From the human T2T-CHM13v2.0 reference genome, Homo sapiens, in the NCBI RefSeq assembly GCF_009914755.1, contig NC_060939.1: a stretch of 64,000 nt of DNA; one strand, written 5' to 3'. The notes beneath the pieces are model-generated. The model was given only the letters and a program-made list of their open reading frames with translations. It searched no databases and was not told the DNA's origin. Both the position numbers and the translations under genes were made by a program. Positions within the stretch are counted from its first letter, which is position 1. Each line of letters begins with the position of its first letter. Below are positions 6,113 through 36,042 of this stretch, one piece after another.

Positions 6113-6317
6113 TCTCATGGAGACCACGGCAGACATAGTGAGAGAGAAAAAGGTGAGTAAATATCTGAAACGGAGGCAGAAACAGAGAGAATGAAAAGCC
6201 CTGTTGAATGGAAGGGAGAGCGAAAAGGGAAAATGGTCCTATTTACAAATGACAGATGTGAAACTGGGGTTCACATCAACAGTGTCACTGCCAGGAAGGA
6301 GGGTCATGCTAGCCATG

Positions 6318-9589: not shown

Positions 9590-9667
9590 GATTAGGAAAC
9601 CTGCAGCTCCCAGGGGCCCCCACTAATGTTCTAACTCGCAGAAGGAAGGAGTGTGTGTGCGTGTGTG

Positions 9668-9700
<33 letters not shown>

Positions 9701-12700: not shown

Positions 12701-12908
12701 GTAGTCTCATGGAGACCACGGCAGACATAGTGAGAGAGAAAAAGGTGAGTAAATATCTGAAACGGAGGCAGAAACAGAGAGAATGAAAAGCCCTGTGAAT
12801 GGAAGGGAGAGCGAAAAGGGAAAATGGTCCTATTTACAAATGACAGATGTGAAACTGGGGTTCACATCAACAGTGTCACTGCCAGGAAGGAGGGTCATGC
12901 TAGCCATG

Positions 12909-15900
12909 TCACCGGTAGTGTGGCCCGCAGGGACGCCGACCTGCTGGAGCATCGTGCCAGCATGGGCTGTGGCAAGCACGTGGGCCAGCAGGAGGTTCCC
13001 GCTGCACAGCTGTGGGGTGAGGATAGACTGGGTGGTGATATCGGCCATTACAGGGGCCTCTTCTGCTGGCAAGAGTGTGACAGTAGCAAGTAGATGGACA
13101 GGCCTGCGTGTGAGGACGGAATGCAGGAGGGGTTCTTGTGCGCCTGGGTGTGGGGCCCTCACGGGAACCGTGGAGAAATGGCCAGGTAACTGCGTCATGT
13201 GGGCTAGTAGATTGGCCAGGGCTTCGAACTGAAGGACGATAATGGGGAGTAGCTGTCAGGCCCTGGGAGTGCCTGAGTGTAAGTGGAGATGGGTTTGGGG
13301 TCACTGAGGGATGCGTGGGAGCCATCCCTGTATAGGTACAGGTCATAGGGAGATAGTCTCGTGAGGCCTGTGAGTGTCTAGGGTTGTCCTGGGTGCCTGG
13401 GGCTGACTGTGGCAGAAATCTGGGGAAGGCTGGAGAGAAGCTGGGAGACCCAGGAGAGTCCCTGAAGGCAGGGGGTGAAGAGGTGAAAGAAATGGGGGAG
13501 GGTTGCAGTAAGGTCCGTGAGTTTGTAGGTGATTCCTGGGTGCGGGAAGCTGACTCCAGGTGAAATCTGGAGATGGTTGGAGAGTAGCTGAGAGAGAAGA
13601 GTCCCTGAGGGCTGGGGGTGAGAACATGAGGGAGACGGGGGAGTAAGTCAGTGAAATTCGTGAGTTCGGTGGTGTATCGTGGGTGCCTGGAACTGACTCC
13701 AGCTGGAATCTAGAGAAGTTTTGAGAGTAGCTGAAGGAGACACAAGAGTCCCTGTGGGCTGAGGGCAAAGACCTGAGAGAGACCAGGGAGGACCTCAGTG
13801 AAATCTGTGAGTCTGTAGGTGATTCCGGAGAGTGGGAGGCTGACTCCCGCTGAAATCTGGGCGTGGTGGGAGAGTAGCTGGGACAGACAGGAGAGTCCCA
13901 GGGGGCTGGGGGTGAAGACATGAGAGAGACTGGGGAGTAACTCAGTGAAATTGCTGAGTTGGTTGGTGATACCTGGGTGCCTGGAACTGACCCCCGCTGA
14001 AATCTGGGCATGGTTGGAGAGTAGCTGGGACACACAGGAGAGTCCCTGAGGGCTGGGGGTGAAGACATGAGCGAGACCGGGTAGCAACTGAGTGAAACTG
14101 GTGAGTTTGGTGGTGACTCCGGGGTGCCTGGAACTGACTCCAGCTGAAATGTGGGCGTGGTTGGAGAGTAGCTGGGACAGACAGGAGAGTCCCTGAGGAC
14201 TGGTGAAGACATGAGAGAGAGTGGAGAGTAATTGAGTGAAATTGGTGAGTTTGGTGGTGATTCCTGGGTGCCTGGAACTGACTCCCGCTGAAGTGTGGGC
14301 GTGGTTGGAGAGTAGCTGGGACACACAGGAGAGTCCCTGAGGGTTGGAGATAAAGACGTGCTAGAGACTGAGGAGTAACTGAGTGAAATTGGTGAGTTTG
14401 GTGGTGATTCCGGGGTGCCTGGAACGGACTCCAGCTGAAATGTGGGCGTGGTTGGAGAGTAGCTGGGACAGACGGGAGAGTCCCTGAGGGATGGTGAAGA
14501 CATGAGAGAGACTGGGGAGTAACGCAGTGAAATTGGTGAGTTTGGTGGTGATTTCTGGGTGCCTGCAACGGACTCCCGCTGAAGTGTGGGCGTGCTTGGA
14601 GAGTAGCTGGGACAGACAGGCGAGTCCCTGAGGGTTGGAGATAAAGACGTGCTAGAGACTGAGGAGTAACTGAGTGAAATTGGTGAGTTTGGTGGTGATA
14701 CCGGGGTGCCTGGAACGGACTCCAGCTGAAATGTGGGCGTGGTTGGAGAGTAGCTGGGACAGACGGGAGAGTCCCTGAGGGATGGTGAAGACATGAGAGA
14801 GACTGGGGAGTAACGCAGTGAAATTGGTGAGTTTGGTGGTGATTTCTGGGTGCCTGCAACGGACTCCCGCTGAAGTGTGGGCGTGCTTGGAGAGTAGCTG
14901 GGACAGACAGGCGAGTCCCTGAGGGTTGGAGATAAAGACGTGCTGGAGACTGGGGAGTAACTCAGTGAAAGTGGTGGGCTTGGTGGTGATCCCAGGGTTC
15001 CTGGAACTGACCCGCGCTGAAATGTGGGCGTGGTTGGAGAGTAGCTGGGACAGACTGGAGGGTCCGTAAGGGCTGGGGGTGAAGACGTGAGAGAGACTGG
15101 CGAGGATCTCACTGAGGTCTGTGAGTTTGTAGGTGTTTCTGGGGTGTGGGGTACAGACTCCCGCTGAAATCTGGGCGTAGTTGGAGAGTAGCTGGGACAG
15201 ACAGGAGAGTCATGGGTGGCTGGGGGTGAGCTGCTGGATGATGGCAGTAAGAACATATGGTACATTATTGATGAAAGAGGTGACTGTGAAGAATCTCCAG
15301 AGGAGGACACGGGAGAACACAATGACATGAGTGACTGTCCTGCTTGGTTAGGAAAGGGAAACGTAAAGTTGTGGAATTCTGTTGATGATGGATGTGAGAG
15401 TGGTGAAGCCCTGCGGGGTGATGTAGAGGACTTCCACATCCCTGGTGAGGAGCTGCCCCTTGGGTCTGAGTTTCTGGGAGGGGAGAGGGAGAAGCTGGGT
15501 GAGGCAGGCATGAATCTTGAGGAGTCAGGGCTGGGGGACCGCTCATATTCTCCCGAGACCTGTGAGTCTCTGGGGGACTCCTGGGTGCATGGGGCTGACT
15601 CCCGCAGGAACCTGGGGATGGCTGGAGAGTAACTGGGAGCCACAGGAGGGTCCCTGAGGCCTGGGGGTGAAGAGATGCAAGACACAGTGGTGGAGCAGCG
15701 TGAGGCTCGTGAGTTTGTAGGTGATTCCTGGGTGTGGGGGGCTGACTCCAGCTGAAATCTGGGGTTGTTTGGAGAGTAGCTGGGAGACACAGGAGACCCC
15801 CCGAGAGCTGGGGGTGAGCTGCTGGGTGATGGCAGTAAGAACATGTGGTATATTATTGATGAACGTGGGGACTCTGAGGAGTCCTCAGAGGAGGACACGG

Positions 15901-16177
15901 CAGAGCCCAATGGCTTCATTGATTGCCCATCACGGTGAGGACAGGGAAATGGGAGCTTGTGGGATTCTGGTGATGACAGAGGTGAGTGTGGTGAAGCCCT
16001 AGGGGATGGTGAATGGTAGTTCCGGATCCCTGGTGAGGAGCTTCCCCTTAAGCCTGAGTTTCTGAGAGGGGAGAGGGAGAAGCTGGGTGAGGCTCGCATG
16101 GACCTTGGGGTGTCCGTGCTGGGGGACCGTTCATAAGAAGAGCCACACAAGACCCTACTGTTCTTAGGTGCAGACAT
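12909..16177 (-). pseudogene. Unit 3 copy, frameshifted (944 aa)
   Basis: A 4-bp deletion at ~13596 (agagagaaga vs agagagacagaaga) shifts the frame after ...LRDSS, giving a stop at 13343. Confidence 0.7.
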
Positions 16178-16252
16178 GATTAGGAAACCTGCAGCTCCCA
16201 GGGGCCCCCACTAATGTTCTAACTCGCAGAAGGAAGGAGTGTGTGTGCGTGT

Positions 16253-16286
<34 letters not shown>

Positions 16287-18781
16287 TTGTGTGTGTGCGG
16301 TGTGAGGTATGGGCCCCTTAAGGAAATGGAAATCAACCAACCAATGGGACAGACAGACAGACAGACAGACAGAGATTCACTTGCCCAAGTGTTCTGTCCT
16401 GTCCTCTGAATCCGCTTCCAAGTCGCAAGACGCTGTGAGCTCCAAGTCCACGCAGAGTCCGCCAAACGCTGCGGCCGCTGATCCGCTCCGCGAAGATCTG
16501 AGTACAGGCCAGCCAGGGTGGGTTTAAATAGCCTCGGGCGCAGCCTAGCAGCGGAAAGGGCGGAGCTTCACTCCTCCTTTCCATCAGTCACCCCCAACTT
16601 TCCCAGGCTACACCTCGTAGGAAACTGTTCTCCTGCTTTGATTTCATGCGCCACCTTTGGGACAATCTAAGAACTTACAGGTTTTCTTGGCCAGATTTAT
16701 TAGGAATTGTATGCACTGAAACACTGAAAACCAACTAGTGGTTCTGTGCTTCCCACGTTGTGGTTTTGACACCAGCAGCATCCTTGCCACAATCAAACCC
16801 CGGAGATCCGCAGATCTGTGTTGTAACAAGACCTCCCCCTGACCCTGAAGCATGGCAGTTGAAGAAGTCTTTCCGTGTAAGCGAAAAGACTTTGAAGAAA
16901 AGGTGGAGATATGCGTTGTATAAACATTCTTTTGCTCTGGAACCACGTAGAGACTTGGGAGCCAGTTGGGTGGAGCATTCGTTGGATGAGGGTGCTCGGG
17001 TTAGGAATATCAAGGTGTTTCTCCAGATAATCCAATCATCTAATTAAGATTCCAGTTATGCTCATCTGTTTTAAAATTCCGTTTGGGTAAATTCTTTTAG
17101 TCAGACTGAGAATGGCAAAGCCTCAACCCCAATTTCCAGGGAGGGTGGAGAGCCTCAGGTGGAGTTGATCACCAATAGCCTATAGTTTAACCCATCATGC
17201 CTATAGAATGAGGTCTCCATCAAAATCCAAAAGGACTGGGTTCAGAGAGCTTCTGGATAACACTTCCTGGAAGGTAGTGCGGCCCTCCCCGCATGGCGGG
17301 CCCCACATTTATTTCTGAACTTTGTGCAATGTCCGCTAAATTACAACGGCAAATGTAAGTGTTTCCCTGCGTGCTGTGAGCTCTTCCAGCAAATGAATGC
17401 AACTAAATCTGGGAGTGGTGGCAACCTGATTTATAGCCAGTTGCTGAGAAGTACAGGTAAAACAACTTAGGGCTTCCCATTGTTATTGGTGTGGGAGGCC
17501 TGTCTGGCGGGACTCGGCCCTTTGGAATCTAATGCTATGTCCCGGTAGATAGCGTCACCATTGAATTAGAAGACACACATATGTGGAGAATAATCTTTCT
17601 GGTCATTTGCTGCATGTCTTATTTACAATATGTAATCAAATTCTTTATCCTGACCTTATGGCACCTGGGTTTGAACCAAAAGTTGGTCTGTCACTTTCTG
17701 AGTTTGAAACTTTATTTTGCCTTTAGCGTTTTGCTATTGCTTTTTCGTTTTCTTTTGTTTCGTTTCGTTTCTAAGTTCTGGGGTATATGTGCAGGATGTG
17801 CAGATTTGTTACTAAGGTAAACGTGTGCCATGGTGGTTTGCTGCACCTGTCAACCCGTCACCTAGGTATTAAGCCCAGCATGCAGTAGCTGTTTTTCTTA
17901 ACGCTCTGCCTCCCGAACGGCCCCAGTGTGTGTTGTTCCCCTTCCTGTGTCCATGGGATCTCACTTTTCAGCTCCCATTATAAGTGAGAAGGTGGCGTTT
18001 GGTTTTCTTTCCCTGGATTAGTTTGCTGACGATAATGACCACACATCACCACTGTTTTTGTTTTTTAGTATAAAGAGTAGTATTTTATTGAATAAGATTT
18101 GCTCACAGAAAAATAAGCTTAAATCTACAATGAATGCCAGACCCTACAGCAGAAAGCAATTTTCTCACTTTTCCACACACAATGGTTCCTACTAAGTGAA
18201 AAAAAAGCCATAAAATTTCATTCACAAATGTACTACTCTGTCTCAAAACATCTCACGTAATCATGCACTGTACTAAAGCCATCAGATCAGTTCTTCAGTC
18301 AGGTTAAAGAAGTATCCCTCTAATAACTGACTTTTATAATGCTATCAATATCCACTCCCAATCAGTCTGCCATTGTTAGTGGTGTACAGCATTACTGAAT
18401 ACAACGGAATTGATGACGCCCATATCCACAGACAAACCGTGACTTATGATGGTTTGATTTATGATTTTTCAACGTTATGATGGGTTTTTTGGAATATTAG
18501 ATTCGTTTCTGAGTTACACTGGGTTTATGAGTATGCGACCCTACACTCCAGAAACAGCTGTATAAGGAAAAACAGGTGTACCTAATAAAAATATGCTTAG
18601 TGACTTGGGATAAACCAATAGATGTTCACAAGTGATGGAGAGCCGTGAAAGAGAGATAGCGGTAAATAGTTACAATAACACAATTTTCCTGCACCTGTCG
18701 AGGATTTCCCCCAAAAAACGCAGAATGTGGGATGCACCTAAGGCATATGAAAGAGAGAGGGCAGAAGGAGTAAGAGAGAAA

Positions 18782-18934
18782 TAGGAGGAAGGAAGGAAGG
18801 AAGCAAGGAAGAAAGGAAGGAAGGAAAGAAGGAAGGTAGGACGGAAGGAAGGAAGGAAGGAAGGAAGGAAAGAAGGAAGGAAGGAAGGAAGGAAGGAAGG
18901 AAGGAAGGAAGGAAAGGAGGATGAAAGGAAGGAG
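18782..18934. repeat. Expanded (GGAA)n tract of unit 3
   Basis: 44 bp longer than the modal unit, which accounts for the 6626-bp period. Confidence 0.9.
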
Positions 18935-19530
18935 AAAACACCGGTGTTACTAAAACCCCCCAAAAAATGGTTTCCCCCTGTGGGTAAGCCTACAATGTGG
19001 ATGAATCTTGAAAATATTGTGCTACGTGTTATGTCAGTCATAGCAGCTCACCTATTGTGCAATTCCGTTTATAGGAAATGTCCACAATATGGAAATCTAT
19101 GCATATGGGATTGATCGCACTAGGTAGTTGCTACCTAGGGCTGAGGGTCAGGGAGAGGGTTTGAGACAGAATGAGGAGTGACTAATGTCTACAGGGTCTT
19201 TCTCTGGTCGGGGGTGATAAGACGTTTTACAATGGATTGCGAATTAAAATTGAATGTGCACAACCACAGGTATACTAAAAGCCACTCAATTCATGACCTT
19301 TAATGGGGGAATCTTACGTGGCGTAGTCTCATGGAGACCACGGCAGACATAGTGAGAGAGAAAAAGGTGAGTAAATATCTGAAACGGAGGCAGAAACAGA
19401 GAGAATGAAAAGCCCTGTGAATGGAAGGGAGAGCGAAAAGGGAAAATGGTCCTATTTACAAATGACAGATGTGAAACTGGGGTTCACATCAACAGTGTCA
19501 CTGCCAGGAAGGAGGGTCATGCTAGCCATG

Positions 19531-22500
19531 TCACCGGTAGTGTGGCCCGCAGGGACGCCGACCTGCTGGAGCATCGTGCCAGCATGGGCTGTGGCAAGCA
19601 CGTGGGCCAGCAGGAGGTTCCCGCTGCACAGCTGTGGGGTGAGGATAGACTGGGTGGTGATATCGGCCATTACAGGGGCCTCTTCTGCTGGCAAGAGTGT
19701 GACAGTAGCAAGTAGATGGACAGGCCTGCGTGTGAGGACGGAATGCAGGAGGGGTTCTTGTGCGCCTGGGTGTGGGGCCCTCACGGGAACCGTGGAGAAA
19801 TGGCCAGGTAACTGCGTCATGTGGGCTAGTAGATTGGCCAGGGCTTCGAACTGAAGGACGATAATGGGGAGTAGCTGTCAGGCCCTGGGAGTGCCTGAGT
19901 GTAAGTGGAGATGGGTTTGGGGTCACTGAGGGATGCGTGGGAGCCATCCCTGTATAGGTACAGGTCATAGGGAGATAGTCTCGTGAGGCCTGTGAGTGTC
20001 TAGGGTTGTCCTGGGTGCCTGGGGCTGACTGTGGCAGAAATCTGGGGAAGGCTGGAGAGAAGCTGGGAGACCCAGGAGAGTCCCTGAAGGCAGGGGGTGA
20101 AGAGGTGAAAGAAATGGGGGAGGGTTGCAGTAAGGTCCGTGAGTTTGTAGGTGATTCCTGGGTGCGGGAAGCTGACTCCAGGTGAAATCTGGAGATGGTT
20201 GGAGAGTAGCTGAGAGAGACAGAAGAGTCCCTGAGGGCTGGGGGTGAGAACATGAGGGAGACGGGGGAGTAAGTCAGTGAAATTCGTGAGTTCGGTGGTG
20301 TATCGTGGGTGCCTGGAACTGACTCCAGCTGGAATCTAGAGAAGTTTTGAGAGTAGCTGAAGGAGACACAAGAGTCCCTGTGGGCTGAGGGCAAAGACCT
20401 GAGAGAGACCAGGGAGGACCTCAGTGAAGTCTGTGAGTCTGTAGGTGATTCCGGAGAGTGGGAGGCTGACTCCCGCTGAAATCTGGGCGTGGTGGGAGAG
20501 TAGCTGGGACAGACAGGAGAGTCCCAGGGGGCTGGGGGTGAAGACATGAGAGAGACTGGGGAGTAACTCAGTGAAATTGCTGAGTTGGTTGGTGATACCT
20601 GGGTGCCTGGAACTGACCCCCGCTGAAATCTGGGCATGGTTGGAGAGTAGCTGGGACACACAGGAGAGTCCCTGAGGGCTGGGGGTGAAGACATGAGCGA
20701 GACCGGGTAGTAACTGAGTGAAACTGGTGAGTTTGGTGGTGACTCCGGGGTGCCTGGAACTGACTCCAGCTGAAATGTGGGCGTGGTTGGAGAGTAGCTG
20801 GGACAGACAGGAGAGTCCCTGAGGACTGGTGAAGACATGAGAGAGAGTGGAGAGTAATTGAGTGAAATTGGTGAGTTTGGTGGTGATTCCTGGGTGCCTG
20901 GAACTGACTCCCGCTGAAGTGTGGGCGTGGTTGGAGAGTAGCTGGGACACACAGGAGAGTCCCTGAGGGTTGGAGATAAAGACGTGCTAGAGACTGAGGA
21001 GTAACTGAGTGAAATTGGTGAGTTTGGTGGTGATTCCGGGGTGCCTGGAACGGACTCCAGCTGAAATGTGGGCGTGGTTGGAGAGTAGCTGGGACAGACG
21101 GGAGAGTCCCTGAGGGATGGTGAAGACATGAGAGAGACTGGGGAGTAACGCAGTGAAATTGGTGAGTTTGGTGGTGATTTCTGGGTGCCTGCAACGGACT
21201 CCCGCTGAAGTGTGGGCGTGCTTGGAGAGTAGCTGGGACAGACAGGCGAGTCCCTGAGGGTTGGAGATAAAGACGTGCTAGAGACTGAGGAGTAACTGAG
21301 TGAAATTGGTGAGTTTGGTGGTGATACCGGGGTGCCTGGAACGGACTCCAGCTGAAATGTGGGCGTGGTTGGAGAGTAGCTGGGACAGACGGGAGAGTCC
21401 CTGAGGGATGGTGAAGACATGAGAGAGACTGGGGAGTAACGCAGTGAAATTGGTGAGTTTGGTGGTGATTTCTGGGTGCCTGCAACGGACTCCCGCTGAA
21501 GTGTGGGCGTGCTTGGAGAGTAGCTGGGACAGACAGGCGAGTCCCTGAGGGTTGGAGATAAAGACGTGCTGGAGACTGGGGAGTAACTCAGTGAAAGTGG
21601 TGGGCTTGGTGGTGATCCCAGGGTTCCTGGAACTGACCCGCGCTGAAATGTGGGCGTGGTTGGAGAGTAGCTGGGACAGACTGGAGGGTCCGTAAGGGCT
21701 GGGGGTGAAGACGTGAGAGAGACTGGCGAGGATCTCACTGAGGTCTGTGAGTTTGTAGGTGTTTCTGGGGTGTGGGGTACAGACTCCCGCTGAAATCTGG
21801 GCGTAGTTGGAGAGTAGCTGGGACAGACAGGAGAGTCATGGGTGGCTGGGGGTGAGCTGCTGGATGATGGCAGTAAGAACATATGGTACATTATTGATGA
21901 ATGAGGTGACTGTGAAGAATCTCCAGAGGAGGACACGGGAGAACACAATGACATGAGTGACTGTCCTGCTTGGTTAGGAAAGGGAAACGTAAAGTTGTGG
22001 AATTCTGTTGATGATGGATGTGAGAGTGGTGAAGCCCTGCGGGGTGATGTAGAGGACTTCCACATCCCTGGTGAGGAGCTGCCCCTTGGGTCTGAGTTTC
22101 TGGGAGGGGAGAGGGAGAAGCTGGGTGAGGCAGGCATGAATCTTGAGGAGTCAGGGCTGGGGGACCGCTCATATTCTCCCGAGACCTGTGAGTCTCTGGG
22201 GGACTCCTGGGTGCATGGGGCTGACTCCCGCAGGAACCTGGGGATGGCTGGAGAGTAACTGGGAGCCACAGGAGGGTCCCTGAGGCCTGGGGGTGAAGAG
22301 ATGCAAGACACAGTGGTGGAGCAGCGTGAGGCTCGTGAGTTTGTAGGTGATTCCTGGGTGTGGGGGGCTGACTCCAGCTGAAATCTGGGGTTGTTTGGAG
22401 AGTAGCTGGGAGACACAGGAGACCCCCCGAGAGCTGGGGGTGAGCTGCTGGGTGATGGCAGTAAGAACATGTGGTATATTATTGATGAACGTGGGGACTC

Positions 22501-22803
22501 TGAGGAGTCCTCAGAGGAGGACACGGCAGAGCCCAATGGCTTCATTGATTGCCCATCACGGTGAGGACAGGGAAATGGGAGCTTGTGGGATTCTGGTGAT
22601 GACAGAGGTGAGTGTGGTGAAGCCCTAGGGGATGGTGAATGGTAGTTCCGGATCCCTGGTGAGGAGCTTCCCCTTAAGCCTGAGTTTCTGAGAGGGGAGA
22701 GGGAGAAGCTGGGTGAGGCTCGCATGGACCTTGGGGTGTCCGTGCTGGGGGACCGTTCATAAGAAGAGCCACACAAGACCCTACTGTTCTTAGGTGCAGA
22801 CAT
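19531..22803 (-). CDS. Putative 1090-aa Ser/Pro/Thr-rich Pol II CTD-like heptad-repeat protein (unit 4, intact)
   Basis: Uninterrupted 3273-nt ORF. Its ATG is the first ATG after the TATA/Inr and has A at -3 (TAATCATGT). 49-aa repeats of 7 heptads containing YSPTTP. Translation is not demonstrated. Confidence 0.55.
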   Translation of the reverse strand: MSAPKNSRVLCGSSYERSPSTDTPRSMRASPSFSLSPLRNSGLRGSSSPGIRNYHSPSPRASPHSPLSSPESHKLPFPCPHRDGQSMKPLGSAVSSSEDSSESPRSSIIYHMFLLPSPSSSPPALGGSPVSPSYSPNNPRFQLESAPHTQESPTNSRASRCSTTVSCISSPPGLRDPPVAPSYSPAIPRFLRESAPCTQESPRDSQVSGEYERSPSPDSSRFMPASPSFSLSPPRNSDPRGSSSPGMWKSSTSPRRASPLSHPSSTEFHNFTFPFPNQAGQSLMSLCSPVSSSGDSSQSPHSSIMYHMFLLPSSSSSPPATHDSPVCPSYSPTTPRFQRESVPHTPETPTNSQTSVRSSPVSLTSSPPALTDPPVCPSYSPTTPTFQRGSVPGTLGSPPSPPLSLSYSPVSSTSLSPTLRDSPVCPSYSPSTPTLQRESVAGTQKSPPNSPISLRYSPVSLMSSPSLRDSPVCPSYSPTTPTFQLESVPGTPVSPPNSPISLSYSSVSSTSLSPTLRDSPVCPSYSPSTPTLQRESVAGTQKSPPNSPISLRYSPVSLMSSPSLRDSPVCPSYSPTTPTFQLESVPGTPESPPNSPISLSYSSVSSTSLSPTLRDSPVCPSYSPTTPTLQRESVPGTQESPPNSPISLNYSPLSLMSSPVLRDSPVCPSYSPTTPTFQLESVPGTPESPPNSPVSLSYYPVSLMSSPPALRDSPVCPSYSPTMPRFQRGSVPGTQVSPTNSAISLSYSPVSLMSSPPAPWDSPVCPSYSPTTPRFQRESASHSPESPTDSQTSLRSSLVSLRSLPSAHRDSCVSFSYSQNFSRFQLESVPGTHDTPPNSRISLTYSPVSLMFSPPALRDSSVSLSYSPTISRFHLESASRTQESPTNSRTLLQPSPISFTSSPPAFRDSPGSPSFSPAFPRFLPQSAPGTQDNPRHSQASRDYLPMTCTYTGMAPTHPSVTPNPSPLTLRHSQGLTATPHYRPSVRSPGQSTSPHDAVTWPFLHGSREGPTPRRTRTPPAFRPHTQACPSTCYCHTLASRRGPCNGRYHHPVYPHPTAVQREPPAGPRACHSPCWHDAPAGRRPCGPHYR

Positions 22804-22878
22804 GATTAGGAAACCTGCAGCTCCCAGGGGCCCCCACTAATGTTCTAACTCGCAGAAGGAAGGAGTGTGTGTGCGTGT

Positions 22879-22912
<34 letters not shown>

Positions 22913-23120
22913 TTGTGTGTGTGCGGTGTGAGGTATGGGCCCCTTAAGGAAATGGAAATCAACCAACCAATGGGACAGACAGACAGACAGACAGACAGAG
23001 ATTCACTTGCCCAAGTGTTCTGTCCTGTCCTCTGAATCCGCTTCCAAGTCGCAAGACGCTGTGAGCTCCAAGTCCACGCAGAGTCCGCCAAACGCTGCGG
23101 CCGCTGATCCGCTCCGCGAA

Positions 23121-23191
23121 GATCTGAGTACAGGCCAGCCAGGGTGGGTTTAAATAGCCTCGGGCGCAGCCTAGCAGCGGAAAGGGCGGAG
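23121..23191 (-). promoter_or_regulatory. Core promoter of unit 4 (GC box, TATA 23156-23149, Inr 23127-23121)
   Basis: Same motifs as unit 1. DUX-type motif at 23654-23664. Confidence 0.65.
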
Positions 23192-26112
23192 CTTCACTCC
23201 TCCTTTCCATCAGTCACCCCCAACTTTCCCAGGCTACACCTCGTAGGAAACTGTTCTCCTGCTTTGATTTCATGCGCCACCTTTGGGACAATCTAAGAAC
23301 TTACAGGTTTTCTTGGCCAGATTTATTAGGAATTGTATGCACTGAAACACTGAAAACCAACTAGTGGTTCTGTGCTTCCCACGTTGTGGTTTTGACACCA
23401 GCAGCATCCTTGCCACAATCAAACCCCGGAGATCCGCAGATCTGTGTTGTAACAAGACCTCCCCCTGACCCTGAAGCATGGCAGTTGAAGAAGTCTTTCC
23501 GTGTAAGCGAAAAGACTTTGAAGAAAAGGTGGAGATATGCGTTGTATAAACATTCTTTTGCTCTGGAACCACGTAGAGACTTGGGAGCCAGTTGGGTGGA
23601 GCATTCGTTGGATGAGGGTGCTCGGGTTAGGAATATCAAGGTGTTTCTCCAGATAATCCAATCATCTAATTAAGATTCCAGTTATGCTCATCTGTTTTAA
23701 AATTCCGTTTGGGTAAATTCTTTTAGTCAGACTGAGAATGGCAAAGCCTCAACCCCAATTTCCAGGGAGGGTGGAGAGCCTCAGGTGGAGTTGATCACCA
23801 ATAGCCTATAGTTTAACCCATCATGCCTATAGAATGAGGTCTCCATCAAAATCCAAAAGGACTGGGTTCAGAGAGCTTCTGGATAACACTTCCTGGAAGG
23901 TAGTGCGGCCCTCCCCGCATGGCGGGCCCCACATTTATTTCTGAACTTTGTGCAATGTCCGCTAAATTACAACGGCAAATGTAAGTGTTTCCCTGCGTGC
24001 TGTGAGCTCTTCCAGCAAATGAATGCAACTAAATCTGGGAGTGGTGGCAACCTGATTTATAGCCAGTTGCTGAGAAGTACAGGTAAAACAACTTAGGGCT
24101 TCCCATTGTTATTGGTGTGGGAGGCCTGTCTGGCGGGACTCGGCCCTTTGGAATCTAATGCTATGTCCCGGTAGATAGCGTCACCATTGAATTAGAAGAC
24201 ACACATATGTGGAGAATAATCTTTCTGGTCATTTGCTGCATGTCTTATTTACAATATGTAATCAAATTCTTTATCCTGACCTTATGGCACCTGGGTTTGA
24301 ACCAAAAGTTGGTCTGTCACTTTCTGAGTTTGAAACTTTATTTTGCCTTTAGCGTTTTGCTATTGCTTTTTCGTTTTCTTTTGTTTCGTTTCGTTTCTAA
24401 GTTCTGGGGTATATGTGCAGGATGTGCAGATTTGTTACTAAGGTAAACGTGTGCCATGGTGGTTTGCTGCACCTGTCAACCCGTCACCTAGGTATTAAGC
24501 CCAGCATGCAGTAGCTGTTTTTCTTAACGCTCTGCCTCCCGAACGGCCCCAGTGTGTGTTGTTCCCCTTCCTGTGTCCATGGGATCTCACTTTTCAGCTC
24601 CCATTATAAGTGAGAAGGTGGCGTTTGGTTTTCTTTCCCTGGATTAGTTTGCTGACGATAATGACCACACATCACCACTGTTTTTGTTTTTTAGTATAAA
24701 GAGTAGTATTTTATTGAATAAGATTTGCTCACAGAAAAATAAGCTTAAATCTACAATGAATGCCAGACCCTACAGCAGAAAGCAATTTTCTCACTTTTCC
24801 ACACACAATGGTTCCTACTAAGTGAAAAAAAAGCCATAAAATTTCATTCACAAATGTACTACTCTGTCTCAAAACATCTCACGTAATCATGCACTGTACT
24901 AAAGCCATCAGATCAGTTCTTCAGTCAGGTTAAAGAAGTATCCCTCTAATAACTGACTTTTATAATGCTATCAATATCCACTCCCAATCAGTCTGCCATT
25001 GTTAGTGGTGTACAGCATTACTGAATACAACGGAATTGATGACGCCCATATCCACAGACAAACCGTGACTTATGATGGTTTGATTTATGATTTTTCAACG
25101 TTATGATGGGTTTTTTGGAATATTAGATTCGTTTCTGAGTTACACTGGGTTTATGAGTATGCGACCCTACACTCCAGAAACAGCTGTATAAGGAAAAACA
25201 GGTGTACCTAATAAAAATATGCTTAGTGACTTGGGATAAACCAATAGATGTTCACAAGTGATGGAGAGCCGTGAAAGAGAGATAGCGGTAAATAGTTACA
25301 ATAACACAATTTTCCTGCACCTGTCGAGGATTTCCCCCAAAAAACGCAGAATGTGGGATGCACCTAAGGCATATGAAAGAGAGAGGGCAGAAGGAGTAAG
25401 AGAGAAATAGGAGGAAGGAAGGAAGGAAGCAAGGAAGAAAGGAAGGAAGGAAAGAAGGAAGGTAGGACGGAAGGAAGGAAGGAAGGAAGGAAGGAAAGAA
25501 GGATGAAAGGAAGGAGAAAACACCGGTGTTACTAAAACCCCCCAAAAAATGGTTTCCCCCTGTGGGTAAGCCTACAATGTGGATGAATCTTGAAAATATT
25601 GTGCTACGTGTTATGTCAGTCATAGCAGCTCACCTATTGTGCAATTCCGTTTATAGGAAATGTCCACAATATGGAAATCTATGCATATGGGATTGATCGC
25701 ACTAGGTAGTTGCTACCTAGGGCTGAGGGTCAGGGAGAGGGTTTGAGACAGAATGAGGAGTGACTAATGTCTACAGGGTCTTTCTCTGGTCGGGGGTGAT
25801 AAGACGTTTTACAATGGATTGCGAATTAAAATTGAATGTGCACAACCACAGGTATACTAAAAGCCACTCAATTCATGACCTTTAATGGGGGAATCTTACG
25901 TGGCGTAGTCTCATGGAGACCACGGCAGACATAGTGAGAGAGAAAAAGGTGAGTAAATATCTGAAACGGAGGCAGAAACAGAGAGAATGAAAAGCCCTGT
26001 GAATGGAAGGGAGAGCGAAAAGGGAAAATGGTCCTATTTACAAATGACAGATGTGAAACTGGGGTTCACATCAACAGTGTCACTGCCAGGAAGGAGGGTC
26101 ATGCTAGCCATG

Positions 26113-29100
26113 TCACCGGTAGTGTGGCCCGCAGGGACGCCGACCTGCTGGAGCATCGTGCCAGCATGGGCTGTGGCAAGCACGTGGGCCAGCAGGAGGT
26201 TCCCGCTGCACAGCTGTGGGGTGAGGATAGACTGGGTGGTGATATCGGCCATTACAGGGGCCTCTTCTGCTGGCAAGAGTGTGACAGTAGCAAGTAGATG
26301 GACAGGCCTGCGTGTGAGGACGGAATGCAGGAGGGGTTCTTGTGCGCCTGGGTGTGGGGCCCTCACGGGAACCGTGGAGAAATGGCCAGGTAACTGCGTC
26401 ATGTGGGCTAGTAGATTGGCCAGGGCTTCGAACTGAAGGACGATAATGGGGAGTAGCTGTCAGGCCCTGGGAGTGCCTGAGTGTAAGTGGAGATGGGTTT
26501 GGGGTCACTGAGGGATGCGTGGGAGCCATCCCTGTATAGGTACAGGTCATAGGGAGATAGTCTCGTGAGGCCTGTGAGTGTCTAGGGTTGTCCTGGGTGC
26601 CTGGGGCTGACTGTGGCAGAAATCTGGGGAAGGCTGGAGAGAAGCTGGGAGACCCAGGAGAGTCCCTGAAGGCAGGGGGTGAAGAGGTGAAAGAAATGGG
26701 GGAGGGTTGCAGTAAGGTCCGTGAGTTTGTAGGTGATTCCTGGGTGCGGGAAGCTGACTCCAGGTGAAATCTGGAGATGGTTGGAGAGTAGCTGAGAGAG
26801 ACAGAAGAGTCCCTGAGGGCTGGGGGTGAGAACATGAGGGAGACGGGGGAGTAAGTCAGTGAAATTCGTGAGTTCGGTGGTGTATCGTGGGTGCCTGGAA
26901 CTGACTCCAGCTGGAATCTAGAGAAGTTTTGAGAGTAGCTGAAGGAGACACAAGAGTCCCTGTGGGCTGAGGGCAAAGACCTGAGAGAGACCAGGGAGGA
27001 CCTCAGTGAAGTCTGTGAGTCTGTAGGTGATTCCGGAGAGTGGGAGGCTGACTCCCGCTGAAATCTGGGCGTGGTGGGAGAGTAGCTGGGACAGACAGGA
27101 GAGTCCCAGGGGGCTGGGGGTGAAGACATGAGAGAGACTGGGGAGTAACTCAGTGAAATTGCTGAGTTGGTTGGTGATACCTGGGTGCCTGGAACTGACC
27201 CCCGCTGAAATCTGGGCATGGTTGGAGAGTAGCTGGGACACACAGGAGAGTCCCTGAGGGCTGGGGGTGAAGACATGAGCGAGACCGGGTAGTAACTGAG
27301 TGAAACTGGTGAGTTTGGTGGTGACTCCGGGGTGCCTGGAACTGACTCCAGCTGAAATGTGGGCGTGGTTGGAGAGTAGCTGGGACAGACAGGAGAGTCC
27401 CTGAGGACTGGTGAAGACATGAGAGAGAGTGGAGAGTAATTGAGTGAAATTGGTGAGTTTGGTGGTGATTCCTGGGTGCCTGGAACTGACTCCCGCTGAA
27501 GTGTGGGCGTGGTTGGAGAGTAGCTGGGACACACAGGAGAGTCCCTGAGGGTTGGAGATAAAGACGTGCTAGAGACTGAGGAGTAACTGAGTGAAATTGG
27601 TGAGTTTGGTGGTGATTCCGGGGTGCCTGGAACGGACTCCAGCTGAAATGTGGGCGTGGTTGGAGAGTAGCTGGGACAGACGGGAGAGTCCCTGAGGGAT
27701 GGTGAAGACATGAGAGAGACTGGGGAGTAACGCAGTGAAATTGGTGAGTTTGGTGGTGATTTCTGGGTGCCTGCAACGGACTCCCGCTGAAGTGTGGGCG
27801 TGCTTGGAGAGTAGCTGGGACAGACAGGCGAGTCCCTGAGGGTTGGAGATAAAGACGTGCTAGAGACTGAGGAGTAACTGAGTGAAATTGGTGAGTTTGG
27901 TGGTGATACCGGGGTGCCTGGAACGGACTCCAGCTGAAATGTGGGCGTGGTTGGAGAGTAGCTGGGACAGACGGGAGAGTCCCTGAGGGATGGTGAAGAC
28001 ATGAGAGAGACTGGGGAGTAACGCAGTGAAATTGGTGAGTTTGGTGGTGATTTCTGGGTGCCTGCAACGGACTCCCGCTGAAGTGTGGGCGTGCTTGGAG
28101 AGTAGCTGGGACAGACAGGCGAGTCCCTGAGGGTTGGAGATAAAGACGTGCTGGAGACTGGGGAGTAACTCAGTGAAAGTGGTGGGCTTGGTGGTGATCC
28201 CAGGGTTCCTGGAACTGACCCGCGCTGAAATGTGGGCGTGGTTGGAGAGTAGCTGGGACAGACTGGAGGGTCCGTAAGGGCTGGGGGTGAAGACGTGAGA
28301 GAGACTGGCGAGGATCTCACTGAGGTCTGTGAGTTTGTAGGTGTTTCTGGGGTGTGGGGTACAGACTCCCGCTGAAATCTGGGCGTAGTTGGAGAGTAGC
28401 TGGGACAGACAGGAGAGTCATGGGTGGCTGGGGGTGAGCTGCTGGATGATGGCAGTAAGAACATATGGTACATTATTGATGAATGAGGTGACTGTGAAGA
28501 ATCTCCAGAGGAGGACACGGGAGAACACAATGACATGAGTGACTGTCCTGCTTGGTTAGGAAAGGGAAACGTAAAGTTGTGGAATTCTGTTGATGATGGA
28601 TGTGAGAGTGGTGAAGCCCTGCGGGGTGATGTAGAGGACTTCCACATCCCTGGTGAGGAGCTGCCCCTTGGGTCTGAGTTTCTGGGAGGGGAGAGGGAGA
28701 AGCTGGGTGAGGCAGGCATGAATCTTGAGGAGTCAGGGCTGGGGGACCGCTCATATTCTCCCGAGACCTGTGAGTCTCTGGGGGACTCCTGGGTGCATGG
28801 GGCTGACTCCCGCAGGAACCTGGGGATGGCTGGAGAGTAACTGGGAGCCACAGGAGGGTCCCTGAGGCCTGGGGGTGAAGAGATGCAAGACACAGTGGTG
28901 GAGCAGCGTGAGGCTCGTGAGTTTGTAGGTGATTCCTGGGTGTGGGGGGCTGACTCCAGCTGAAATCTGGGGTTGTTTGGAGAGTAGCTGGGAGACACAG
29001 GAGACCCCCCGAGAGCTGGGGGTGAGCTGCTGGGTGATGGCAGTAAGAACATGTGGTATATTATTGATGAACGTGGGGACTCTGAGGAGTCCTCAGAGGA

Positions 29101-29385
29101 GGACACGGCAGAGCCCAATGGCTTCATTGATTGCCCATCACGGTGAGGACAGGGAAATGGGAGCTTGTGGGATTCTGGTGATGACAGAGGTGAGTGTGGT
29201 GAAGCCCTAGGGGATGGTGAATGGTAGTTCCGGATCCCTGGTGAGGAGCTTCCCCTTAAGCCTGAGTTTCTGAGAGGGGAGAGGGAGAAGCTGGGTGAGG
29301 CTCGCATGGACCTTGGGGTGTCCGTGCTGGGGGACCGTTCATAAGAAGAGCCACACAAGACCCTACTGTTCTTAGGTGCAGACAT
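26113..29385 (-). CDS. Putative 1090-aa CTD-like repeat protein (unit 5, intact)
   Basis: Full ORF with C11/R25/H301, as in unit 4. Confidence 0.55.
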   Translation of the reverse strand: MSAPKNSRVLCGSSYERSPSTDTPRSMRASPSFSLSPLRNSGLRGSSSPGIRNYHSPSPRASPHSPLSSPESHKLPFPCPHRDGQSMKPLGSAVSSSEDSSESPRSSIIYHMFLLPSPSSSPPALGGSPVSPSYSPNNPRFQLESAPHTQESPTNSRASRCSTTVSCISSPPGLRDPPVAPSYSPAIPRFLRESAPCTQESPRDSQVSGEYERSPSPDSSRFMPASPSFSLSPPRNSDPRGSSSPGMWKSSTSPRRASPLSHPSSTEFHNFTFPFPNQAGQSLMSLCSPVSSSGDSSQSPHSSIMYHMFLLPSSSSSPPATHDSPVCPSYSPTTPRFQRESVPHTPETPTNSQTSVRSSPVSLTSSPPALTDPPVCPSYSPTTPTFQRGSVPGTLGSPPSPPLSLSYSPVSSTSLSPTLRDSPVCPSYSPSTPTLQRESVAGTQKSPPNSPISLRYSPVSLMSSPSLRDSPVCPSYSPTTPTFQLESVPGTPVSPPNSPISLSYSSVSSTSLSPTLRDSPVCPSYSPSTPTLQRESVAGTQKSPPNSPISLRYSPVSLMSSPSLRDSPVCPSYSPTTPTFQLESVPGTPESPPNSPISLSYSSVSSTSLSPTLRDSPVCPSYSPTTPTLQRESVPGTQESPPNSPISLNYSPLSLMSSPVLRDSPVCPSYSPTTPTFQLESVPGTPESPPNSPVSLSYYPVSLMSSPPALRDSPVCPSYSPTMPRFQRGSVPGTQVSPTNSAISLSYSPVSLMSSPPAPWDSPVCPSYSPTTPRFQRESASHSPESPTDSQTSLRSSLVSLRSLPSAHRDSCVSFSYSQNFSRFQLESVPGTHDTPPNSRISLTYSPVSLMFSPPALRDSSVSLSYSPTISRFHLESASRTQESPTNSRTLLQPSPISFTSSPPAFRDSPGSPSFSPAFPRFLPQSAPGTQDNPRHSQASRDYLPMTCTYTGMAPTHPSVTPNPSPLTLRHSQGLTATPHYRPSVRSPGQSTSPHDAVTWPFLHGSREGPTPRRTRTPPAFRPHTQACPSTCYCHTLASRRGPCNGRYHHPVYPHPTAVQREPPAGPRACHSPCWHDAPAGRRPCGPHYR

Positions 29386-29460
29386 GATTAGGAAACCTGC
29401 AGCTCCCAGGGGCCCCCACTAATGTTCTAACTCGCAGAAGGAAGGAGTGTGTGTGCGTGT

Positions 29461-29494
<34 letters not shown>

Positions 29495-32400: not shown

Positions 32401-32694
32401 TTGCGAATTAAAATTGAATGTGCACAACCACAGGTATACTAAAAGCCACTCAATTCATGACCTTTAATGGGGGAATCTTACGTGGCGTAGTCTCATGGAG
32501 ACCACGGCAGACATAGTGAGAGAGAAAAAGGTGAGTAAATATCTGAAACGGAGGCAGAAACAGAGAGAATGAAAAGCCCTGTGAATGGAAGGGAGAGCGA
32601 AAAGGGAAAATGGTCCTATTTACAAATGACAGATGTGAAACTGGGGTTCACATCAACAGTGTCACTGCCAGGAAGGAGGGTCATGTTAGCCATG

Positions 32695-35967: not shown

Positions 35968-36042
35968 GATTAGGAAACCTGCAGCTCCCAGGGGCCCCCA
36001 CTAATGTTCTAACTCGCAGAAGGAAGGAGTGTGTGTGCGTGT

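What the first reader, a model, noticed from the sequence alone, without database searches (positions are those of the whole stretch)
20000..21830. The 147-bp monomer is exactly seven CTD-register heptads
147 bp = 49 codons = 7x7. A monomer parses as YSPTTPT / FQLESVP / GTPESPP / NSPISLS / YSPVSLM / SSPPALR / DSPVCPS, against the CTD consensus Y1S2P3T4S5P6S7. S/T-P at positions 2-3 recurs in 6 of 7 heptads and Ser5 in 4 of 7, and Tyr/Phe sits at position 1 in three. The two YSP motifs are 28 and 21 aa apart, both multiples of 7. Inference: the satellite descends from a 21-bp CTD-like coding repeat (possibly a POLR2A CTD-derived fragment) that was re-amplified as a 7-mer, giving over 130 degenerate heptads against 52 in human POLR2A.
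Basis: partly seen in the sequence, partly recalled or inferred. Interest (0 to 1): 0.85.

Follow-up and report, generated by a model that had tools for sequence, protein, structure and literature searches.

The report
ACRO1 satellite's polymerase-tail-like reading frame
The 147-base repeat is the known human ACRO1 satellite, whose translated likeness to the tail of RNA polymerase II is already published, but here it proves to sit inside a long open reading frame that also has relatives in whales and sheep, so it probably did not come from the polymerase gene.

Summary
The array at 20009-21855 has 12.6 copies of a 147-bp unit. Its minus strand reads as 49 codons in seven S-P heptads. The 21-bp sub-period beats all 5000 shuffles, and 22 of 49 residues match YSPTSPS in register.

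It is not new. This is the ACRO1 satellite inside the ~6.6-kb ACRO/ACRE macrosatellite. Boots et al. 2020 (PMC7714431) already reported the CTD likeness (23/49) and suggested descent from Pol II CTD mRNA.

- The array lies in a 1090-codon ATG-to-stop frame (22803 to 19534, minus strand), intact in 7 of 10 window copies and open for at least 950 codons in about 125 of 150 scored genome copies.
- Predicted proteins of marmoset, two whales and sheep share its start, its non-repeat blocks, its repeat unit and its C-terminus.
- CTD likeness is strong in human, weaker in marmoset and near shuffle level in the whale and sheep relatives.
- Third codon positions show no similarity to the POLR2A CTD exon. 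The only DNA-level hint is Ser7=AGY against Ser2/Ser5=TCN.

Best reading: ACRO1 is an amplified 49-codon repeat of an older S/P-rich reading frame, and the CTD likeness is resemblance, not POLR2A descent. Whether the frame is translated is open.

The parts
20009..21855 (-). Main ACRO1 array: 12.6 copies of 147/144 bp (49/48 codons) with a 291-bp dimer superstructure. This is the finding itself.
   Evidence: TRF; monomers cut in register; consensus and 81% mean pairwise identity.
22111..22404 (-). Short upstream array of two further 49-codon monomers in the same frame. It corresponds to the '256 bp array' of Boots et al.
   Evidence: Anchors at ORF residues 144 and 193; description in PMC7714431 section 7.
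19531..22836 (-). Stop-to-stop open frame of 1101 codons. ATG at 22803-22801 (MSAPKNSR...), 1090 codons, stop at 19533-19531.
   Evidence: the ORF listing; 0 in-frame stops against 13 and 18 in the other two frames; whale proteins align from their residue 1 to 22803.
22405..22803 (-). N-terminal non-repeat block, with the conserved motifs FPxP..GQS and YHMF. A diverged duplicate of it forms the spacer at 21856-22110.
   Evidence: Alignment of human, marmoset, two whale and two unnamed (ENA) proteins.
19534..20008 (-). C-terminal non-repeat block, with the conserved motifs SQG..PGQ and C.S.CYC..L..R.
   Evidence: Alignment; P0008 aligns to window 20973-19651; 831 genome candidates, 150 scored, at 94-100% identity.
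23654..23664 (-). Match to the DUX4 consensus site TAAYBBAATCA, about 850 bp upstream of the ATG. One per unit.
   Evidence: 10 matches in the window against 0.31 expected. As the units are copies, this is effectively one observation. Motif confirmed in a passage of PMC4321439. A consensus match only.
23149..23156 (-). TATTTAAA (TATA-like) preceded by CCGCCC boxes, about 350 bp upstream of the ATG.
   Evidence: Read directly from the sequence. A consensus match only; not evidence of function.
19299..19304 (-). ATTAAA polyadenylation-like hexamer, about 230 bp downstream of the stop.
   Evidence: Regex scan. A consensus match only.
213..61363 (-). Ten tandem copies of the ~6.58-kb unit. Array starts are 213, 6796, 13387, 20009, 26591, 33173, 39755, 46337, 52935 and 59517. 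The 1101-codon frame is intact in 7, one copy has 1004 codons, and two are frameshifted.
   Evidence: TRF; minus-strand open frames.

Best explanation
The 147-bp monomer is the ACRO1 satellite. It is best read as a 49-codon repeat unit of an S/P-rich, probably disordered, reading frame that is older than primates.

In primates the unit was amplified in register. The 147-bp unit and the 291-bp dimer are both multiples of three, so unequal crossing-over keeps the frame. The whole ~6.6-kb gene-like unit was then amplified again as the ACRO/ACRE macrosatellite on acrocentric short arms.

The seven-heptad substructure reflects regularly spaced Ser-Pro motifs kept at the protein level. The likeness to the RNA polymerase II CTD is a resemblance between two S-P heptad repeats, not descent from POLR2A.

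Shown here:
- the periodicity;
- the open frame;
- the relatives in marmoset, whales and sheep;
- the lack of third-position or flank similarity to POLR2A.

Inferred:
- an origin before primates;
- past protein-level selection.

Open: whether the frame is still translated.
For: 1. The periodicity is in codon positions 1 and 2 only (z 9.0 and 3.4; position 3 z -0.33).

2. The 1101-codon frame has 0 stops, against 13 and 18 in the other frames. Stop trinucleotides predict about 10.3 per frame.

3. Relatives outside the human lineage:
- marmoset P0004, 832 aa, 60% identity;
- Balaenoptera ricei P0005;
- Eschrichtius robustus P0007;
- Ovis aries P0013 and P0014, and unnamed records P0008 and P0009.
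None of the six scanned (P0004, P0005, P0007, P0008, P0009, P0013) has any Pfam domain, RPB1 domains included.

4. The similarity is beyond composition.
- P0005 against the human frame scores 65.1 bits, against 18.2 +/- 1.9 (max 23.5) for 100 local shuffles.
- P0008 scores 37.7 bits, against 17.9 +/- 2.0 (max 23.9).

5. Shared non-repeat blocks, namely YHMF, PAL(R)DSP..SYSP..PR and C.S.CYC, and a shared start codon.

6. The whale protein's 34 human matches were all in ACRO-family copies, the best on chr19. Chr19 holds two younger copies and two fragments at about 75% identity.

7. CTD likeness falls from human to the whale and sheep relatives:
- human 0.379;
- marmoset 0.306;
- whales 0.263;
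- sheep 0.214, against a shuffle level of about 0.21-0.25.

8. Against POLR2A:
- third-position shuffles reach the observed blastn score in 84 of 300 trials;
- the in-register synonymous test gives 53 of 500;
- POLR2A flanks have no match, with best blastn E 0.2.

9. Chr19 copy against the window copy.
- The non-repeat parts of the frame differ at 95 of 1546 sites, the parts of the unit outside the frame at 180 of 1901 (Fisher p 3.9e-4).
- Indels number 1 (3 bp) in the frame parts against 10 outside it, none of those a multiple of three (Poisson p 0.0027).
Against: 1. Ser codon families are placed as in the CTD. ACRO1 has Ser2 TCN 5 of 5, Ser5 TCN 4 of 4 and Ser7 AGY 2 of 2. The CTD has Ser7 AGY 22 of 26, Ser2 TCN 34 of 40 and Ser5 TCN 36 of 49 (whose position labels are shifted by one residue). 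A full synonymous shuffle reaches the observed blastn score in only 4 of 300 trials. This favours a link to the CTD-coding DNA.

2. The best non-family matches are RPB1. In the 5.8-billion-protein search it was P0006, at 40 bits. In the PDB search, 14 of the 15 sequences listed are RPB1 or a CTD peptide, the first 13 all RPB1, best E 2.6e-9 but with very large bias terms.

3. There are only two outgroup clades and no deeper outgroup. So it is not settled whether CTD likeness was gained in primates or lost in cetartiodactyls.

4. The non-primate relatives are predicted or hypothetical proteins, and I could not see their DNA or synteny.

5. There is no sign of present protein-level selection.
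- dN/dS among acrocentric arrays is 0.35-1.7, no lower than in shifted frames.
- Chr19 against the window gives 0.81, with differences by codon position of 28/28/32.
- In the array, 38 synonymous, 74 non-synonymous and 0 stop changes compare with nulls of 32.6 synonymous and 2.97 stops (P 0.10 and 0.033).
Confidence: 0.62

Rival explanations
1. ACRO1 descends from the POLR2A CTD-coding sequence, for example a fragment of CTD mRNA copied into the genome and re-amplified as a seven-heptad unit. This is the reading of the first reader and of Boots et al. 2020.
For: - 22 of 49 residues match in register (0 of 5000 shuffles).
- RPB1 tops the PDB search and is the best non-family protein match.
- blastn of the array against the CTD exon gives 49.1 bits, 69% over 114 nt, above 60 of 60 synonymous shuffles. 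At monomer level, 4 of 300 shuffles reach the observed score.
- Ser7 is AGY and Ser2/Ser5 are TCN in both sequences.
- Five of seven position-7 codons begin with A, as in the CTD.
Against: - The DNA signal vanishes once the Ser/Leu/Arg codon family is held in place (84 of 300), so it rests on one character that all monomers share.
- The in-register synonymous test gives 53 of 500.
- There is no match to the POLR2A linker or 3'UTR within the 1.9 kb tested.
- There are no canonical heptad pairs outside POLR2A.
- The frame's non-CTD start, spacer and tail are shared with whale and sheep proteins that are barely CTD-like. This rules out a primate-only acquisition and leaves only a much older event, for which there is no evidence.
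Confidence: 0.12
2. A purely non-coding satellite. On this reading a 21-bp DNA sub-repeat and a pyrimidine-rich strand give a stop-poor frame and an S/P-rich translation by accident, and the open frame has never been a gene.
For: - All three minus-strand frames are stop-poor: 5, 5 and 0 stops in about 620 codons in the array.
- The minus strand is 40% C.
- dN/dS is about 1 among human copies.
- Marmoset P0004 and record P0003 run through out-of-frame stretches without meeting a stop.
- RefSeq annotates no coding gene here (hub annotation).
- Sense ACRO1 inserts nearly abolish reporter RNA in HeLa cells (PMC7714431, passage read).
Against: - Periodicity confined to codon positions 1 and 2 is not expected of neutrally diverged DNA sub-repeats.
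- 0 stops where about 10.3 are expected per frame.
- Start, blocks and tail are conserved in two mammalian superorders.
- In the chr19 comparison the frame's flanks have fewer substitutions and no frameshifting indels compared with the rest of the same unit.
Confidence: 0.12
3. The frame is a live, multi-copy, intronless gene. On this reading DUX4 switches it on at the 4-cell stage, and it encodes a roughly 1090-residue CTD-like disordered protein.
For: - Gene-like layout on one strand: a DUX4-consensus site, a TATA-like box, the ATG, a 1090-codon frame and ATTAAA.
- The frame is intact in 7 of 10 window copies and is at least 950 codons in about 125 of 150 scored copies (my hand count's table).
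- The literature reports that DUX4 activates ACRO1 transcription (passages of PMC8990217 and PMC12776069) and that expression peaks at the 4-cell stage (PMC6545021).
- The chr19 comparison shows a deficit of indels and substitutions in the frame.
Against: - There is no amino-acid-level constraint among human copies.
- Boots et al. could not detect stable transcripts in HeLa cells and found the sense RNA self-silencing.
- The promoter and polyA elements are consensus matches only.
- I have no strand-specific expression or peptide data.
Confidence: 0.25

Closest known systems
ACRO1 satellite within the ACRO / 'ACRE' 6-kb composite macrosatellite (Boots et al. 2020, PMC7714431; acrocentric-evolution preprint, PMC12767296)
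   Same: A 147-bp unit. One long array (1.85 kb here) plus a short one (294 bp) in a ~6.6-kb tandem unit. Located on an acrocentric short arm, with copies on chromosomes 3, 13, 14, 15, 21, 22, 19, 2, 4 and 20. The translated CTD likeness is the one they printed (23 of 49; 22 of 49 against the bare consensus here).
   Different: Nothing in the DNA differs: this is that satellite. Added here are the 1090-codon frame spanning both arrays and its flanks, and protein relatives in whales and sheep. The papers call the repeat primate-specific (passages read).
RNA polymerase II RPB1 C-terminal domain heptads (Pfam PF05001, RNA_pol_Rpb1_R)
   Same: A seven-residue period with Ser2-Pro3. Ser5 in 4 of 7 heptads and Tyr/Phe1 in 3 of 7. 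The same secondary lags of 3-4 residues. The same placement of Ser codon families.
   Different: No Pfam match at E<=10. No canonical heptad pair. Not attached to an RPB1 body. No third-position or flank similarity to POLR2A. The unit of repetition is 49 residues, not 7.
D4Z4 macrosatellite carrying the DUX4 open frame
   Same: A multi-kb tandem unit, each copy carrying an intronless open frame. Families spread over acrocentric short arms and pericentromeres. Linked with cleavage-stage activation, according to the literature passages read.
   Different: No homeobox or any other Pfam domain. No demonstrated protein. The ACRO unit has no match to the DUX-type C-terminal tail.
Coding minisatellites of S/T/P-rich proteins, such as mucin-type tandem repeats (named from general knowledge, not tested here)
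   Same: In-frame tandem units whose length is a multiple of three. Copy number changes by whole units: frames of 1003, 1052, 1101, 1149 and 1248 codons differ by about 49 or 97. The sequence evolves fast while composition is kept.
   Different: Here the whole gene-like unit is itself amplified hundreds of times in heterochromatic arrays, and current coding function is unproven.

Membership tests
ACRO1 satellite / ACRO composite | 147-bp tandem monomer | tested here: met
   TRF period 147, 12.6 copies.
ACRO1 satellite / ACRO composite | A long array plus a ~256-bp array inside a ~6-kb higher-order tandem unit | tested here: met
   Arrays of 1847 bp and 294 bp; unit period 6582-6622 bp, ten copies. 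Description in PMC7714431 section 7.
ACRO1 satellite / ACRO composite | Location on acrocentric short arms, with further copies on chromosomes 3, 4, 19, 2 and 21 | tested here: met
   The window is chr15:1.98-2.05 Mb (hub annotation). Copies found on C3, C13, C14, C15, C21, C22, C19, C2, C4 and C20.
ACRO1 satellite / ACRO composite | Match to the Dfam/Repbase ACRO1 consensus, with L1PA10, MER21B and L1MB8 pieces in the unit | not testable with these tools
   No repeat library is held. The identification rests on the features above and on the printed CTD-like translation.
RPB1 CTD (PF05001) | Match to the Pfam heptad model | tested here: not met
   0 families at E<=10 for the 1101-residue frame. 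The genome-wide family search was uninformative: it found nothing anywhere, POLR2A and controls included.
RPB1 CTD (PF05001) | Runs of canonical YSPTSPS heptads | tested here: not met
   The degenerate 1.5-heptad pattern has 25 matches, all at C17:7417171-7418126 (POLR2A), and none in ACRO.
RPB1 CTD (PF05001) | Seven-residue period with Ser2-Pro3 and Ser5 | tested here: met
   Lag 7/14/21 identity 0.252 against 0.116; 22 of 49 in register.
RPB1 CTD (PF05001) | Common descent shown by synonymous-site or flank similarity to POLR2A | tested here: inconclusive
   Third positions are at chance (84 of 300; 53 of 500). Flanks have no match. Ser codon-family placement does agree (4 of 300).
Protein-coding gene | ATG-to-stop frame kept in other species | tested here: met
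   1090 codons. Whale proteins align from residue 1 to the ATG. Conserved blocks. The other species' entries are predictions only.
Protein-coding gene | Purifying selection on the protein (dN/dS below 1) | tested here: inconclusive
   dN/dS is about 0.8-1, as in shifted frames. Against that, the chr19 comparison shows fewer substitutions and no frameshifting indels in the frame's flanks.
Protein-coding gene | Sense transcript, translation and protein product | not testable with these tools
   Only the literature bears on this: ACRO1 RNA at the 4-cell stage and after DUX4. No strand or peptide data were seen.

The most novel reading that the evidence does not exclude
The ACRO macrosatellite is not mere satellite DNA. 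It would be hundreds of copies of an old boreoeutherian intronless gene. DUX4 would switch it on at the 4-cell stage, and it would yield a roughly 1090-residue disordered protein whose S-P heptads mimic the Pol II CTD. Such a protein could compete for CTD kinases, phosphatases or CTD-binding factors, or join Pol II condensates, during embryonic genome activation. In whales the same frame is modelled in one gene with a DUX-type C-terminal activation tail (P0007), which hints at an old genomic partnership between this gene and the DUX locus.
Probability: 0.2. Interest if true: 0.85.

Novelty: already known. Interest (0 to 1): 0.4.

Why it matters
The finding as written repeats a published observation and a published speculation, so it adds little by itself.

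What may matter is the context found here. ACRO is the repeat most strongly and universally enriched on great-ape acrocentric short arms after the rDNA. It is called primate-specific and treated as satellite in the passages I read (PMC12767296, PMC7714431). A conserved 1090-codon frame with whale, sheep and marmoset relatives would change three things:
- It would move the origin of ACRO back before primates.
- It would weaken the CTD-mRNA origin story.
- It would make a concrete question testable: does the RNA seen at the 4-cell stage and after DUX4 encode a CTD-like protein?

It also explains a database error. Marmoset and whale entries are named 'RPB1' yet carry no RPB1 domain.

Tried and rejected
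- The genome-wide search with Pfam PF05001 found nothing anywhere, POLR2A and the 14 control genomes included, so it says nothing.
- A 42-place degenerate pattern was over the tool's size limit. A 32-place version worked.
- Pfam gave no family for the human frame or for six relatives.
- The first parse of the CTD into heptads slipped one residue. It was re-parsed, and one search's codon table is read with that shift.
- One blastn shuffle script timed out. It was rerun with lighter settings.
- dN/dS among human arrays has little power at 1-3% divergence.
- The whale-protein genome search ran with a stricter first look and could not cut out loci.
- I considered folding the protein and rejected it: the sequence is low-complexity and probably disordered.
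- Literature searches for 'ACRO1' with 'open reading frame' (10 papers held both terms, 8 listed) and with 'DUX4' turned up no description of this frame in the listings and passages I read. Supplements were not opened and may bear on this.
Full report
**What is there**

The window holds ten tandem copies of a ~6.58-kb unit. Each copy carries a 147-bp array, with starts at 213, 6796, 13387, 20009 and so on up to 59517. The array of the finding runs from 20009 to 21855: 12.6 copies, 81% matches, and a better-fitting 291-bp dimer period at 85%.

That frame has no stop in 619 codons. The other two minus frames have 5 each, and the plus frames have 34, 33 and 56. Cutting at the SYSP anchors gives twelve monomers of 49 or 48 codons. 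Their consensus is YSPTTPT FQRESVP GTQESPP NSPISLS YSPVSLM SSPPALR DSPVCPS.

Its counts hold, with one adjustment. [ST]P at positions 2-3 is found in 5 of 7 consensus heptads, and in 6 of 7 only in the three monomers that read GTP. 'Over 130 heptads' is not right for this array, which is about 88 heptad lengths.

**Is it more than chance?**

Yes. On the 147-bp consensus:
- Circular identity at lags 21/42/63 is 0.415 against 0.282 +/- 0.02. None of 5000 mononucleotide, dinucleotide-preserving or codon-order shuffles reached it, and 21 is the best lag of all.
- At the protein level, identity at lags 7/14/21 is 0.252 against 0.116 (0 of 5000).
- Matches to YSPTSPS in one register are 22 of 49, against a best-register null of 12.6 +/- 1.4 with a maximum of 19 (0 of 5000).
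- The periodicity lies in codon position 1 (z 9.0) and position 2 (z 3.4) and is absent from position 3 (z -0.33).

Neutral decay of a duplicated 21-bp DNA unit would spread differences evenly over the three positions. So the heptads are alike at the amino-acid level, not as DNA.

**It is already in print**

The array is the ACRO1 satellite. Boots et al. 2020 (PMC7714431; sections 7 and 12 and further passages read) make the following points:
- They describe the 147-bp unit, its 1.3-2.4-kb and 256-bp arrays, and the 6-kb 'ACRE' higher-order repeat.
- They state that the translated consensus shares 23 of 49 residues with a CTD fragment and reflects the heptad repeat.
- They suggest that ACRO1 may derive from Pol II CTD mRNA as a recent, primate-only acquisition.
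- They show that sense ACRO1 RNA binds Pol II and that sense inserts of 1.1-1.4 kb nearly abolish reporter RNA.

A 2025 preprint (PMC12767296; passages read) calls ACRO a 6-kb composite of ACRO1, L1PA10, MER21B and L1MB8. It describes ACRO as primate-specific and as the repeat most enriched on great-ape acrocentrics after rDNA.

**The frame is much longer than the array**

Stop to stop it spans 19531-22836 (1101 codons). From the ATG at 22803 it runs 1090 codons. It contains, in order:
- an N-terminal block;
- two further monomers (22111-22404);
- a spacer that is a diverged copy of the N-terminal block;
- the twelve monomers;
- a 176-codon C-terminal block.

Across the span the frame has 0 stops, against 13 and 18 in the other frames. 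Stop trinucleotides predict about 10.3 per frame. In the window it is intact in 7 of 10 copies, one copy has 1004 codons, and two are frameshifted.

Genome-wide, the C-terminal block has 831 candidates. The 150 scored lie on chromosomes 3, 13, 14, 15, 21 and 22 at 94-100% identity. By my count of that table, 125 of the 150 have an open frame of at least 950 codons. Frame lengths differ by about 49 or 97 codons, as expected from gain and loss of whole monomers or dimers.

**Relatives outside the human lineage**

The word-indexed protein search returned:
- three human-like fragments from unnamed records (P0001-P0003);
- a marmoset protein of 832 aa (P0004, 60% identity, named RPB1 by its source);
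- a Rice's whale protein of 633 aa (P0005, also named RPB1);
- a true RPB1 (P0006, 40 bits).

Further searches added a gray whale protein (P0007), two sheep hypothetical proteins (P0013, P0014) and unnamed records P0008-P0012. Of these, six (P0004, P0005, P0007, P0008, P0009 and P0013) were scanned against Pfam and none has any domain.

The similarity is not just composition. P0005 against the human frame gives 65.1 bits, against 18.2 +/- 1.9 (max 23.5) for 100 local shuffles. P0008 gives 37.7 bits, against 17.9 +/- 2.0.

Both whale proteins align from their first residue to the ATG at 22803, and P0008 aligns through the C-terminal block. An alignment shows shared non-repeat motifs: FPxP..GQS, YHMF, PAL(R)DSP...SYSP..PR...E, SQG..PGQ and C.S.CYC..L..R.

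Searched back against the human genome, the whale protein gave 34 matches. All were ACRO-family copies, and the best was on chr19. Chr19:47.23-47.30 Mb holds:
- two younger copies: L059, 697+290 codons with one internal stop, and L062, 828 codons;
- two older fragments, of which the one I fetched is about 75% identical to the window unit.

Further dispersed copies lie on chromosomes 2, 4 and 20.

**Tests of the POLR2A origin**

The CTD exon was located by a degenerate 1.5-heptad pattern. There were 25 matches, all at C17:7417171-7418126, and none in ACRO.
- In register, the best DNA identity of the consensus to any seven-heptad window is 83 of 147. This is far above codon-order shuffles (57 +/- 4; 0 of 500). 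It is not above shuffles that keep the protein and reshuffle synonymous codons (79.1 +/- 2.7; 53 of 500).
- blastn finds an HSP of 49.1 bits (69% over 114 nt), above 60 of 60 synonymous shuffles of the array. The monomers are copies of one another, so the monomer is the proper unit for this test.
- At monomer level, the observed 41.9 bits is reached by 4 of 300 full synonymous shuffles. It is reached by 84 of 300 shuffles that keep the Ser/Leu/Arg codon family in place and change third positions only.

The whole DNA-level signal is therefore one character. Ser at heptad position 7 uses AGY, and Ser2 and Ser5 use TCN, as in the CTD: Ser7 AGY 22 of 26, Ser2 TCN 34 of 40, Ser5 TCN 36 of 49 (labels shifted by one residue). 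I report this as real but weak support for a CTD link.

With the heptads masked, 1.9 kb of POLR2A flank (linker exons, introns and part of the 3'UTR) has no match in the unit. The best blastn E is 0.2 and the best tblastx E is 0.006.

CTD likeness was measured as the fraction of residues matching YSPTSPS in 49-residue windows:
- human array 0.379;
- older chr19 fragments 0.327 and 0.328;
- marmoset 0.306;
- whales 0.263;
- P0008 0.249;
- sheep 0.214.

Shuffle levels are 0.21-0.25. With only two outgroup clades the direction of change is not proven. Even so, a primate-only capture of CTD mRNA is excluded if the whale and sheep proteins are true relatives.

**Is the frame under selection now?**

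The evidence is mixed.
- Among acrocentric arrays, dN/dS in the flanks is 0.35-1.7, like the shifted-frame controls.
- Chr19 against the window gives 0.81, with differences of 28/28/32 by codon position.
- Within the array, 112 unique changes split into 38 synonymous, 74 non-synonymous and 0 stop. The nulls are 32.6 synonymous and 2.97 stops (P 0.10 and 0.033).
- In the chr19 comparison, however, the frame's flanks differ at 95 of 1546 sites and the rest of the same unit at 180 of 1901 (Fisher p 3.9e-4). Indels number 1 (3 bp) against 10, none of which is a multiple of three (Poisson p 0.0027).
- About 3.5% of substitutions would create a stop. That means roughly 3.5 new stops at 3% divergence and 7 at 6%.

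Gene conversion or local differences in mutation rate could produce the same contrast.

**Gene-like layout**

On the minus strand each unit has:
- one match to the DUX4 consensus TAAYBBAATCA at 23664-23654 (10 in the window against 0.31 expected; motif confirmed in PMC4321439);
- a TATTTAAA box at 23156-23149;
- the ATG, with A at position -3;
- an ATTAAA about 230 bp after the stop.

These are consensus matches, not proof of function. They do fit printed statements that DUX4 activates ACRO1 transcription (passages of PMC8990217 and PMC12776069) and that ACRO1 RNA peaks at the 4-cell stage (PMC6545021). Against expression, Boots et al. found no stable transcripts in HeLa cells and found the sense RNA self-silencing.

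**Verdict**

A coding-repeat history is supported; POLR2A descent is not.
- The most likely account is an old S/P-rich reading frame whose 49-codon repeat was amplified in primates, with the whole unit then amplified again as ACRO.
- The frame, its non-primate relatives and its gene-like layout were not mentioned in anything I read (searches; no supplements opened). They are the part worth following up.

Noticed in passing
P0007 residues 467-598; human matches such as G000:C14:5293018-5293314 (L060 1092-2018): The gray-whale relative ends in a tail (..LLDELLSDADILD..EAPLSEEEFQALLDML..). That tail matches 150 scored sites (of 438 candidates) on chr1 at 128 Mb, the acrocentric short arms, and chromosomes 3, 5, 9, 10 and Y. 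One fetched copy ends ...EAPLSEEEYRALLEDL. From memory this is the DUX4 C-terminal activation region of D4Z4-like repeats. So the whale gene model joins the ACRO-type frame to a DUX-type tail. The human ACRO unit has no match to that tail.
   Followed up: partly
P0004 (marmoset), P0005 (Rice's whale): Both entries are named 'DNA-directed RNA polymerase II subunit RPB1' by their sources, yet neither has any Pfam domain, RPB1 domains included. They are relatives of the ACRO frame. This looks like an annotation error caused by the CTD likeness.
   Followed up: yes
P0001-P0003 (unnamed ena/lgn records): Near-identical pieces of the human ACRO frame sit in protein collections derived from unnamed records. 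P0003 runs out of frame without meeting a stop. A paper on human contamination of bacterial assemblies lists ACRO1 among the contaminating repeats (PMC6581058, passage read).
   Followed up: partly
G000:C19:47232000-47299745 (L059, L061, L062): Chr19 carries a cluster of family members within about 65 kb. There are two younger copies in opposite orientation, each with an (AGGA)n or (TCTG)n/(CA)n microsatellite as in the acrocentric unit. There are also two older matches, at 47277500 and 47299224; the one I fetched (L061) is about 75% identical to the window unit. This is a candidate ancestral locus.
   Followed up: partly
window 18786-18933, 5616-5719, 12200-12311, 51740-51859 and the matching sites in other units: The (AGGA)n microsatellite downstream of the frame varies from 26 to 37 copies between otherwise near-identical units. 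A (GT)n/(GTGTGC)n tract and a (GACA)n tract lie in the putative 5' leader.
   Followed up: no
window 6321-9334 and 12912-16210: Two of the ten units (the second and third) have frameshifted frames: 484+659 and 266+955 codons in different frames. The seven units from 19534 onward are intact, and the first has 1004 codons.
   Followed up: partly
G000:C3:95379252, C13:4987059, C15:1547795, C21:1966981, C22:3516573, C14:1326933: A D4Z4-like copy with a 385-codon open frame lies roughly 300-450 kb from the ACRO arrays on each of these chromosomes. This suggests that both belong to one large shared duplication.
   Followed up: no
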